From: Thalia democratica
Taxonomy: Eukaryota
NCBI GenBank assembly: GCA_965202585.1
Contig: OZ241831.1
Span: 37,386,001-37,450,000 of the forward strand
Direction of reading: 5' to 3'
Length of the DNA stretch: 64,000 nt
Every line of letters starts with the position of its first letter. The first letter of the stretch is position 1. Below are positions 33,001 to 36,000 of the stretch, in pieces. The position numbers are program-made.

Positions 33001-36000
33001 ACTAAACTAGCAACTATATATTTAATAAAATTATTTAATTTGCAGCATCAATAATAAAAAATGTATGAAAAAAAAATGCAGCTGAAAATTATTTGCTTAT
33101 TTTTCTAAACTAAAGATGCAGCTTTTTATTAAAAAATTTACAAGTCTATAAATGCTTAACTACAACATCTTAAAAATATACAATGGCGACAAAGGAATTA
33201 AAAAGGTATTTAGAATGAAGTAAAAATTCTTGCTACCAACATAACTAAATAAAATGTGAACACAATTACAAAAAGCTTAAAAAACTTACTTTTTATAGTT
33301 TGCATAGTTACATACATGTATAAAGTTTTAATATCTTAAGTGTTAACATTTTTAAGCTTAAGAAAAAAAAAACAGTTCAAGGTTTCTTGGTAAAAAATTG
33401 AACATGTTATACTTTGACCGTCTAAGTAAGATGTTATGTTATAAAGAATAAATAAATTAAAACTTTTTTAGCATTTAGTAATAATTATCTTTTTAGCTTT
33501 TATATTGATACTTTTGCTTTACCCTATCTCGCTTTGTTTACTTTTGTCTCCATGTGTTTTATGATTGCTCCTCAACTAGATTTTGTTGAACTAAAATCTG
33601 TGATGGACTCTTTCCATTGTTGCTGTTAGATTCCAAAACAGTCAATCCTAATAGTAAATACATAAATAAGATTCTGTAGCTTTCTAAGGTTTTAAATATA
33701 CTTTGTTTATTAATGAATTAAAACCAAGTTTTATAAAATCTAACTTTTTTGTATAAAACTGACTTAATGTTGTTGTAACAAAAAGTTTCTATTTTTAATG
33801 TTAAGATACATTAAACAACTTTTTCAAACTAACTCTGTTGGCAGTTCTGACTTTCATAAAAGTCGTAAGCAGACTCCATCGAATTGAACGATTGTACGGA
33901 TGAATGGGGACTCCTAGTGGCAGAAGTTTCCGGCAATCCCGGTTGAATTACGGGATACATATCAGTACTGTAATAAGCAGAACCGTACTGCTGCATCTGT
34001 GGGTGCTGGATGTAGCTGCTAGGTGGCGCAAGGGGTGGTTGGTGGTGAAAATTGTGAGCATCGTAAACTGATTGGTTGTAGCAGGAATTTGATGGCTGCA
34101 CTGAAGTAAAAGCTGATGATGCTTGAGTTGGCGACCCCTGTAAAAAATAAATTAAGTTGTCTCAAAAAATTTGCTATGAGTATAAAACACACTGTTAAGA
34201 TAAAAAGAACTTAAATTGTTATAAGTAAGTACATTTGTTGTCTTCCATAAATATTGAATTGACAAGACAATTATTCTATTTTGATTTGCTGTAACTAGTA
34301 AAAATACTGTTACTACACTTTGTTAGAAAAATTATTTGAAATTAGTTGAGTAAATTTACACACTTATTCGCCCGATGATTTTATAGGTGTCAACTGTTTA
34401 TTCACTGAAGATTTCGTGTTGGAACTACAAGATGTAAGATCTGGTGCAAGTCCGTAATAAGCTGTTTTCCATTCTTCCTCGATTTTCGGAGCAAAATATA
34501 ACGCGTTGTTCGGCTGGTGATTGTACCCGTTAAATGGTGTTGTGTATCCTTAAAAAACAGTTACAATTATTTTCATACCGCTAACTCTTAAATTTGTACT
34601 GATTATCGTAATTTAATTTTTCACGAAATAAGTGTAGGAAAATTACAACACCGAAAAGTTAGTAAATAAGAATTTAACTGAACTTAAGTTGTAAAAGTAT
34701 TTCTGTACAAACTGCAGTTACGCTTAATGTTGAAATTTTAAATTAGTTTTAAAGTATTAGTTTCTTACTATTTTTAGCACAGATATATTGTTACTTTTTC
34801 TTAATTTGCTTGTGCAAAATAAAAATTAGAAGGCGTAGTATTTTTTTAATTTTCAACCTCATTATATATAACATTACTAATTGAGGTTATATTTGATTAT
34901 AAATTGGAACTAACTAATTTGCGAGTTGAGTATTTCAGGTATCGAGTGAGTGTAGAACTGAGACTGACTCGAACTTTTCATCGTGGAAGAATGTGAAACG
35001 TTTTCGAATTTCTGCACAGAACTCTTCATCGACACCTGAGGAAAAATAAATCCTGAAGTGTCGTTTGCGCTGTACATCGAACTCGAGCTTTGATTGGTTG
35101 ATGGCTTAACATCAGTCTGATCGCATTTCTTCACTGCTTGCGGCGGGCTCTTTTTTGCTTTGTAATTAGGGTTGAGGGGGTTTTCGGGATGCAGCACATT
35201 GCCCACTTTGTTCCTCAAAATCCTGCTTATGGAGGAGACGGAGGGAACATTGAACTTGTCGCAAACCGTGTCGCTGAGCAACCGGTCCCTGATCTCCCAC
35301 GCGAATATGCCCGGGTCGCCCACCTTGTACTCTTTTATCTTTTCCACCACTTTCGGCGTGGTCACCCTCGGCTTGCTGCCCCCTATGGCGCCCGGCGCGA
35401 TGCTTCCGGTCTCGTTGAATCTGGCCAGGATCTTGCTGACGCAACCATGCGACACCCTCAGGTTTCGGCTGATGTCGCACGGTCGCACCCCCGTCTTGTG
35501 CAGTTCGATTATTTTCACTCGCATCTGGGTTGGCAGGGGTCGGCCGTTGACGAAAACTCCCCCCAATTGATTAACTTCCCCGTAGGAACTACCTGGGAAA
35601 TTAATAATAAATTACTTTTCAAACTTATGAAGAAAAAATTAAAAAGCAGGTTATACATATGACATAAGTTTACATTTGATAGGACTTTAGCTTTAAATTT
35701 TTTTTGTATTGTATAAACTAGTAGTATTTTATAAATTTATATACTTAAAATAGAAATAATTTTACTGAGTCGATTGCCTTAAGCCCCATTAAAGGTTTTA
35801 ATAATCTTTCGCAAATGTAAAGTTCAAAAGTAAAAGTAAATATGCTTTATTCAACTTAATTCTATAACTTTCAATTGTTTAGATTTTTAATTGATTAACC
35901 TTTGTACAGAAATTACACAAAATAAAAACATTATGAATTCATCATGATTTTTCGTCCAGAACGCCGTTAGTGCAAAAAATTTGTGTAATCGACAGTGAGG

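What the first reader, a model, noticed from the sequence alone, without database searches (positions are those of the whole stretch)
34938..35482. 545-bp identical tract between copies A and B inside the paired exon: probable gene conversion
The exon differs at only 7 positions, all synonymous: one at 34937 and six at or beyond 35483. Flanking intron differs at about 10% (~18 differences in ~180 bp by hand). Roughly 13 silent differences would be expected in this tract and none is seen, which protein-level selection alone cannot explain. This points to concerted evolution of the DNA-binding region while the C-terminal exons diverge (several amino-acid changes).
Basis: partly seen in the sequence, partly recalled or inferred. 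Interest (0 to 1): 0.65.

Follow-up and report, generated by a model that had tools for sequence, protein, structure and literature searches.

The report
Gene-conversion patch between tandem Pax1/9 copies
Two neighbouring copies of a Pax1/9 developmental gene share a 545-base stretch with no differences although their surroundings differ by about 9%, most likely because one copy was recently used as a repair template for the other, which is a well-known process.

Summary
A 34938-35482 and B 57031-57575 are letter-for-letter identical (545 bp), the longest exact repeat in the window. The exon differs at 7 positions, all synonymous.

The locus is a tandem array with a period of about 22 kb. It carries a five-exon Pax1/9 gene on the minus strand, and the closest named relatives are ascidian Pax1/9.

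Noncoding A/B divergence is 0.089, and 0.078-0.101 in the introns. That predicts 9-10 silent differences in the tract; none is seen (P about 2e-5 to 5e-5). Within the exon, silent differences are 0 of 118 sites in the tract against 7 of 33 outside it (Fisher 1.4e-5; permutation 3.5e-5).

Half of the tract encodes a fast-evolving linker. It has 13 amino-acid changes against a 93%-identical relative but none between A and B. Selection on the protein therefore does not explain the identity.

Recent non-allelic gene conversion is the best explanation. The tract does not match the DNA-binding domain: it leaves out the first third of the paired domain.

Caveats: silent divergence in the other exons is also low (5 of 140; Fisher 0.065), and assembly homogenisation could not be tested.

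Copy A has a stop codon at the end of exon 3.

The parts
34938..35482 (-). Identical tract, copy A (545 bp). Covers codons 37-217 of exon 2 plus two bases of codon 218: paired-domain residues from about 37 to 126, then the linker and the start of the octapeptide.
   Evidence: Exact string identity with 57031-57575. 0 differences at 118.3 silent and 424.7 non-silent sites.
57031..57575 (-). Identical tract, copy B.
34915..35592 (-). Exon 2 of copy A (678 nt, phase 1 at both ends): full paired domain, linker, octapeptide. Acceptor ...TTTCCCAG|GT, donor ATTA|GTTAGT.
   Evidence: ORF and splice context. Pfam PF00292 PAX E=4.1e-64, residues 3-126, profile positions 2-125 of 125.
57008..57685 (-). 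Exon 2 of copy B (offset +22093). Protein identical to copy A over 225 of 225 in-frame codons.
35483..35592 (-). 5' part of exon 2 outside the tract (36 full codons): 6 synonymous and 0 non-synonymous differences. pS 0.217, pN 0.
   Evidence: Fisher, non-synonymous vs synonymous, 2e-4
37947..38037 (-). Exon 1 of copy A (ATG at 38037). Copy B is at 60073-60163. 5 of 30 residues differ between A and B.
   Evidence: The N-terminus matches P0004.
34364..34548 (-). Exon 3 of copy A using the distal donor that P0004 supports. The last codon, 34366-34364, is TAA in A and AAA in B (B at 56478-56662). An in-frame proximal donor, TCA|GTGAAT, would end the exon at 34406.
33834..34137 (-). Exon 4 of copy A (B at 56013-56316). 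The first 68 codons are identical; 6 differences (4 non-synonymous) fall in the last 33 codons.
33559..33647 (-). Exon 5 of copy A with stop codon (B at 55738-55826). 1 non-synonymous difference.
28368..42954 (.). Alignable block of tandem unit A. Its partner, unit B, is 49646-64000 and runs off the window. The period is about 21-22 kb.
   Evidence: self-BLAST; windowed divergence
31710..31768 (.). Change point in A/B noncoding divergence: 0.177 to the left (28368-31725), 0.084 to the right. This looks like the edge of an older, larger homogenisation event.
   Evidence: 2*dLL 85.5; best position 31726
20065..20520 (-). Older truncated copy C. Only the 3' half of exon 4 (20520-20377) and exon 5 (20133-20065) remain. 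No paired exon.
   Evidence: tblastn of single exons against the window; self-BLAST

Best explanation
The tract is a recent patch of non-allelic (interlocus) gene conversion between two tandem, same-orientation Pax1/9 paralogues about 22 kb apart.

Inferred mechanism: a DNA break in exon 2 of one copy was repaired using the paralogous exon as template. This replaced at most 545 bp and erased the silent (and any replacement) differences that had accumulated there. The exon is the longest highly similar stretch of the two units, because protein-level selection keeps it similar, so it is the most likely place for the homology search to succeed.

One end of the patch lies inside the paired domain, between codons 36 and 37 of the exon. 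The other lies 23 nt before the exon's donor site. The patch therefore follows no domain or exon boundary.

Shown: the identity, the background divergence, the silent-site contrast within the exon, and the fast evolution of the linker between species.

Inferred: the repair mechanism, its direction (unknown), and its recency. With 0 of about 10 expected silent differences, the event falls within roughly the last 30% of the time since the surrounding sequence diverged.
For: 1. Exact 545-bp identity, the longest exact repeat in the window.
2. Background A/B divergence is 0.089 over 8296 noncoding columns and 0.078-0.101 in the four introns. Expected silent differences in the tract are 10.5 or 9.3; 0 are observed (P about 2e-5 to 5e-5).
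3. Contrast within the same exon: 0 of 118 silent sites in the tract against 7 of 33 outside it (Fisher 1.4e-5). A permutation of the 7 differences reached the observed run in 7 of 200,000 trials. This test does not depend on the absolute silent rate.
4. Silent differences are heterogeneous over 9 coding segments (Monte-Carlo p 1.5e-3).
5. Half of the tract encodes a linker that is hypervariable among relatives. Against P0004 (93% identical), exon 2 has 16 of 225 residues changed, 14 of them in the tract. That is the same rate as the other exons (17 of 220). Yet A and B differ at 0 residues in exon 2 against 15 of 220 elsewhere (Fisher 7e-4; tract alone 1.5e-3).
6. No unusual RNA structure in the tract (z -1.05). 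No Rfam family anywhere in the window.
7. A sharp step in A/B divergence at about 31726 (0.177 to 0.084) shows this array was homogenised on a larger scale before.
Against: 1. Silent divergence in exons 1, 3, 4 and 5 is also low (5 of 140 sites, 0.036). Against that baseline the tract's zero is only marginal (Fisher 0.065). Under that rate only about 4 silent differences would be expected.
2. Exons 3 and 4 also begin with identical runs (131 and 215 bp). These could mean general silent-site constraint in this gene, although they could equally be further patches.
3. With only two sequences and no orthologous DNA, no phylogenetic test was possible (paralogues grouping together in the tract but not in the flanks).
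4. No reads were available, so assembly or polishing homogenisation is not excluded.
5. Part of the amino-acid contrast in point 5 above is inflated by relaxed constraint on the other exons. There omega is about 0.85, on segments chosen after seeing the data.
Confidence: 0.76

Rival explanations
1. Assembly or polishing artefact. The two copies really differ at a few silent sites in the tract. Those sites were merged because the tract is the least diverged part of the repeat, for example by bubble popping or by mis-assigned reads during consensus or polishing.
For: The tract is where true divergence would be lowest, about 2% if only silent sites differed. That is where such merging is most likely. 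No read data were available to exclude it.
Against: The window has 64,000 bases without any N through AT-rich repeated sequence. By inference this suggests long reads, which would be anchored by flanks that differ at about 9%. The six silent differences in the adjacent 108 bp and the one at 34937 were kept.
Confidence: 0.12
2. No conversion. The identity comes from purifying selection on the protein, plus constraint on silent sites (codon usage, an exonic regulatory element) and some luck.
For: Silent divergence of the other exons is only 5 of 140. GC at third positions is 0.82 in the paired-domain part of the tract, in a window of about 22% GC, so some force does act on silent sites. Exons 3 and 4 also start with identical runs.
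Against: The first 36 codons of the same exon, the most conserved protein part, carry 6 silent differences in 27.7 sites. The linker half of the tract changes freely between species (13 residues against P0004; indels in other relatives), so its DNA is not frozen. There is no RNA-structure signal. A conserved antisense ORF is not kept: 186 aa in A, cut to 133 aa in B.
Confidence: 0.07
3. A and B are two haplotypes of one locus, wrongly placed in tandem. The tract is then simply a conserved allele segment.
For: The closest named relatives are tunicates, a group known (from recall) for very high heterozygosity. A/B divergence of about 9% in the gene region is high but not unthinkable for such alleles.
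Against: The array has at least one further, older, truncated unit (copy C), so tandem duplication here is real. A 3.3-kb part of the units differs at 0.177 (547 of 3094 columns). The units also differ by large indels of 833, 393 and about 1400 columns and by an inverted segment.
Confidence: 0.04

Closest known systems
Amphioxus Pax3/7a and Pax3/7b tandem paralogues (PMC6010424; passages read)
   Same: A lineage-specific tandem duplication of a Pax gene in an invertebrate chordate, same orientation, about 10 kb apart. [quoted passage not shown]
   Different: There the linker regions have diverged. Here the linker lies inside the identical tract, and the first third of the paired domain lies outside it. 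That argues for a mechanical patch rather than domain-wise conservation. The subfamily differs (Pax1/9, no homeodomain). The pair here is much younger (about 9% noncoding divergence), and one copy carries a stop codon.
Classical interlocus gene conversion between tandem duplicates, e.g. globin gene pairs (recalled textbook knowledge, not from a call)
   Same: A short patch of identity within otherwise diverged tandem paralogues. Its ends are unrelated to exon or domain borders, and it sits in the most similar, GC-richer part of the repeat.
   Different: Nothing of principle. Here only two sequences are available, so direction and phylogenetic incongruence are untested.
Single-copy Pax1/9 of ascidians: Ciona intestinalis Q4H2Z5 (P0015) and Clavelina lepadiformis (P0013)
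   Same: 60-63% identity over 98% of exon 2. Shared N-terminal motif, paired domain and octapeptide.
   Different: Tunicates and amphioxus are described with one Pax1/9 gene (PMC3759438 introduction; passages read). Here there are two full copies and one remnant.

Membership tests
Pax1/9 subfamily of paired-box transcription factors | Complete paired domain | tested here: met
   PF00292 E=4.1e-64, 214.6 bits (cut-off 22), residues 3-126 of exon 2, profile positions 2-125 of 125.
Pax1/9 subfamily of paired-box transcription factors | Best matches are Pax1, Pax9 or Pax1/9 proteins | tested here: met
   Most of the named proteins among the 120 listed are Pax-1, Pax-9 or Pax1/9. The rest are hypothetical or unnamed products, one Pax-3-like entry and one uncharacterised coral protein. 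The named hits that cover 98% of the exon are ascidian Pax1/9 or Pax-9-like.
Pax1/9 subfamily of paired-box transcription factors | Octapeptide present, no homeodomain (definition recalled) | tested here: met
   YTHSIPEIL near the end of exon 2 aligns with the same motif in 7 relatives; Y213, H215, I220 and L221 are invariant. No homeobox family in any of the 5 exon translations at E<=0.01.
Interlocus (non-allelic) gene conversion tract | Two paralogous loci in one genome, with measurable background divergence on both sides of the patch | tested here: met
   Tandem units with 0.086 (intron 2) and 0.098-0.101 (intron 1) divergence flanking the exon.
Interlocus (non-allelic) gene conversion tract | The patch is significantly less diverged than expected at sites free of protein-level selection | tested here: met
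   0 of 118.3 silent sites against 7 of 33 in the rest of the exon (Fisher 1.4e-5); permutation 3.5e-5; Poisson 2e-5 to 5e-5. The contrast with the other exons alone is weaker (0.065).
Interlocus (non-allelic) gene conversion tract | Phylogenetic incongruence: paralogues group together in the patch but with their orthologues in the flanks | not testable with these tools
   No eukaryotic DNA collection was open. Only protein relatives could be fetched. Copy C lacks the paired exon.
Interlocus (non-allelic) gene conversion tract | The identity is real in the organism, not made by the assembly | not testable with these tools
   No reads available.

The most novel reading that the evidence does not exclude
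The pair may be dividing the ancestral function rather than decaying. Copy A would encode a Pax1/9 that ends after exon 3: paired domain plus octapeptide, without the C-terminal exons, so a possible competitor or repressor form. Copy B would encode the full-length protein with an altered N-terminus. Recurrent conversion of exon 2 would be favoured because it keeps the DNA-binding and co-repressor module of the two products identical.

Two findings are compatible with this. Both copies kept the first 36 codons of the paired exon free of replacement changes while 6 silent changes accrued. The derived changes are complementary: B in exon 1, A in exons 3-5.
Probability: 0.1. Interest if true: 0.55.

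Novelty: new member of a known kind. Interest (0 to 1): 0.3.

Why it matters
Pax1/9 is normally a single-copy pharyngeal patterning gene in invertebrate chordates. A young tandem pair with a datable conversion patch is a clean small example of how conversion and selection interact after a developmental transcription factor duplicates.

It also carries a practical warning. Identity of paired-box exons between paralogues should not be read as domain-level selection, and trees built from that exon will underestimate the age of the duplication.

The process itself is textbook, so the finding is useful for annotating this genome rather than surprising.

Tried and rejected
1. A third paired exon to polarise the changes. 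tblastn of each exon translation against the window found exon 2 only at the two known places. Copy C keeps only the 3' half of exon 4 and exon 5.
2. A three-way A/B/C alignment to date the units. Distances to C of 0.31-0.43 mostly reflect poor alignment, so the result was not used.
3. RNA-structure constraint on the tract: z -1.05, with 18 of 100 shuffles folding at least as well. Rejected.
4. A known RNA family in the window: 0 matches at gathering thresholds.
5. A conserved antisense ORF over the tract: 186 aa in A, 133 aa in B. Not conserved, so rejected.
6. cDNA-templated conversion. In spliced order, the tract, the rest of exon 2 and the first 123 nt of exon 3 differ at only one position. 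However, intron 2 is retained in both copies with 29 of 336 columns different, and identity runs 19 nt into that intron. A single spliced-template event is therefore rejected.
7. Looking for A-like and B-like forms among the members of P0004's cluster.
8. Literature. The search tool cannot match the slash in the gene name, so 'pax1' was used as a word start. Searches found no report of a tunicate Pax1/9 tandem pair or of conversion in it.
9. Neither protein search returned a protein closer than 93% identity. The window's own gene products, and hence evidence on which copy is expressed, were not found.

Full report
**Observation**

Window 34938-35482 and 57031-57575 are identical over 545 bp. 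The bases on either side differ: 34937 A/G and 35483 T/C. It is the longest exact repeat in the window; the next are 215, 137 and 131 bp. A MAFFT alignment of A 32633-39034 with B 54816-61166 has 662 differing columns of 6467, and the 545-bp run is its longest identical run.

**Setting**

The window is about 22% GC, with GC-richer peaks at 34-36 kb and 56-58 kb, and it has no N. I do not take it for human.

Self-BLAST shows a tandem array with a period of about 21-22 kb. Unit A is alignable over 28368-42954. Unit B covers 49646-64000 and runs off the window. An older unit C, 72-84% identical in short pieces, has lost the stretch between the homologues of 33998 and 44165. Copy C keeps only the 3' half of exon 4 and exon 5; there is no third paired exon.

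**The gene**

Exon 2 translates to a complete paired domain: PF00292, E 4.1e-64, residues 3-126.

In a protein search with exon 2 alone, most named hits are Pax-1, Pax-9 or Pax1/9. The named proteins that cover 98% of the exon are ascidian (Ciona, Clavelina; 60-63% identity). An unnamed 448-residue protein, P0004, is 93% identical over the whole exon.

Comparing the window exon by exon with P0004 gives a five-exon model on the minus strand of copy A:
- exon 1: 38037-37947
- exon 2: 35592-34915
- exon 3: 34548-34364
- exon 4: 34137-33834
- exon 5: 33647-33559

All introns are GT-AG in both copies. The exon lengths sum to 1347 nt, which is 448 codons plus a stop, the length of P0004.

The spliced model was searched and analysed exon by exon only.

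**Background divergence**

Substitutions in aligned noncoding columns:
- 31668-42954: 737 of 8296 (0.089). The rate is 0.141 at G/C sites and 0.073 at A/T sites.
- intron 1: 236 of 2330
- intron 2: 29 of 336
- intron 3: 13 of 155
- intron 4: 14 of 180

**The tract against expectation**

The tract holds 118.3 silent sites, of which 77 are four-fold sites, and shows no difference at any of them.
- Expected silent differences are 10.5 from the noncoding mean, or 9.3 at four-fold sites with base-specific rates. P(0) is about 2e-5 to 5e-5.
- The strongest test lies within the exon, because it does not depend on the absolute rate. The first 36 codons carry 6 silent differences in 27.7 silent sites (pS 0.217), and the last 8 codons carry 1 in 5.3. 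That is 7 of 33 outside the tract against 0 of 118 inside (Fisher 1.4e-5).
- I placed the 7 differences at random by silent-site weight. A run as long as the observed one appeared in 7 of 200,000 trials.
- Silent differences are heterogeneous over nine coding segments (Monte-Carlo p 1.5e-3). Four of those segments were cut at the first difference after seeing the data.

**Results that weaken the case**

- Silent divergence in exons 1, 3, 4 and 5 is only 5 of 140 sites. Against that baseline alone the tract gives Fisher 0.065. Against all other coding sequence (12 of 173) it gives 0.0019.
- Exons 3 and 4 also start with identical runs of 131 and 215 bp. These could be further patches, or they could be signs of constraint on silent sites.
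- No orthologous DNA and no reads could be examined.

**Protein-level argument**

The tract is not only conserved domain. Of its 543 in-frame bases, 267 encode the region after the paired domain. Among seven relatives that region is hypervariable and full of indels.

Against P0004, A and B together differ at 16 of 225 residues in exon 2. Fourteen of these lie in the tract, 13 of them in the linker. In the other exons the figure is 17 of 220, so the rates are equal. Yet A and B differ from each other at 0 of 225 residues in exon 2 and at 15 of 220 elsewhere. Fisher gives 7e-4 for the exon and 1.5e-3 for the tract.

The caveat is that the other exons look relaxed, with pooled omega 0.85 on post hoc segments. 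That inflates the contrast.

**State of the two copies**

Polarised with P0004:
- Copy B has 3 derived residues in exon 1 and 1 in exon 4.
- Copy A has 1 derived residue in exon 1, 4 in exon 3, 2 in exon 4 and 1 in exon 5.
- Three further differences are ambiguous.

Copy A also has TAA where B has AAA at the last codon of exon 3 (34366-34364). P0004 has the sequence ...SEK at the corresponding place, although the local alignment stops one residue short of it. Copy A is therefore truncated, or a young pseudogene, unless it uses the in-frame proximal donor TCA|GTGAAT at 34406.

Both copies have nonetheless been under selection. In the first 36 codons of exon 2, 0 of 80 non-silent sites changed while 6 of 28 silent sites did (Fisher 2e-4).

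**Mechanism**

The best reading is a short patch of non-allelic gene conversion between direct tandem paralogues. A break in exon 2 of one copy was repaired from the other copy, with a tract of at most 545 bp.

The ends of the patch ignore biology. One falls between codons 36 and 37 of the exon, inside the paired domain. The other falls 23 nt before the donor site.

With none of about 10 expected silent differences, the event lies within roughly the last 30% of the time since the flanks diverged. Its direction is unknown.

The array also shows earlier homogenisation on a larger scale. A/B noncoding divergence drops from 0.177 to 0.084 at a change point near 31726 (support 31710-31768, 2*dLL 85.5). 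The repair mechanism itself is inferred from established knowledge of ectopic conversion, not shown here.

**Rivals**

- Assembly or polishing homogenisation cannot be tested without reads. The uninterrupted 64 kb and the about 9% diverged flanks make it less likely.
- Silent-site constraint is contradicted by three things: the 6 silent differences in the adjacent, most conserved part of the same exon; the free evolution of the linker between species; and the lack of an RNA-structure signal (z -1.05) or an Rfam match.
- Mis-assembled haplotypes are unlikely. There is a third, truncated unit, a 3.3-kb stretch at 0.177 divergence, large indels and an inverted segment.

**Known parallels and novelty**

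The closest published case I found is the amphioxus Pax3/7a/b tandem pair. [quoted passage not shown] Its supplements, which may hold nucleotide-level detail, were not available.

Tunicates and amphioxus are described with a single Pax1/9 (PMC3759438 introduction, passages).

Searches found no report of a tunicate Pax1/9 tandem pair or of conversion in one. The tool cannot match the slash in the gene name, so this is a weak negative. The finding is a new example of a well-known process.

**Not done**

- The cluster members of P0004 could not be listed (tool switched off). Whether the related species also has two forms therefore stayed unchecked.
- No orthologous DNA, reads or expression data were available.
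- The organism was not identified beyond 'closest named relatives are ascidians'.

Noticed in passing
window 34364-34366 (copy A) vs 56478-56480 (copy B): Copy A has a TAA stop at the last codon of exon 3, where copy B has AAA. The relative P0004 reads ...SEK at this place. An in-frame proximal donor at 34406 could bypass the stop. Copy A may be truncated or a young pseudogene.
   Followed up: partly
window 31710-31768: Sharp change point in A/B noncoding divergence, 0.177 to the left and 0.084 to the right (2*dLL 85.5). It looks like the edge of an older, larger homogenisation or unequal-crossover event.
   Followed up: partly
window 36856-36992 = 58945-59081 (intron 1): A 137-bp exact A/B identity in noncoding sequence, GC-richer than its surroundings. 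P is about 2e-3 under the noncoding rate. No Rfam match. It could be a conserved intronic element or a second conversion patch.
   Followed up: partly
window 20065-20520 and 20771-20926: Copy C is a truncated Pax1/9 remnant (3' half of exon 4, and exon 5). Its deletion junction at 20522 joins to the homologue of 44165. Next to that stretch lies a perfect palindrome with 76-nt arms and a 4-nt spacer.
   Followed up: partly
window 61193-61490: A 41-bp tandem repeat, 7.2 copies, present only in unit B. Unit A has a gap of about 390 columns there.
   Followed up: no
window 37948-38037 vs 60074-60163 (exon 1): Exon 1 differs at 5 of 30 residues (6 non-synonymous and 1 synonymous change). Three of the changes are derived in copy B. 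Copy B also gained an in-frame ATG two codons upstream.
   Followed up: partly
window 27837-28228 vs 48299-48690, and 14147-14308 vs 27937-28098: Segments of the tandem units match in inverted orientation (76-84% identity). This indicates a local inversion in one unit.
   Followed up: no
window 41011-42414: About 1.4 kb present in unit A has no counterpart in unit B. Part of it (41430-42169) matches 9053-9835 at 72%, so B probably lost it. Conversely, B has about 830 extra bases at 53987-54816.
   Followed up: no
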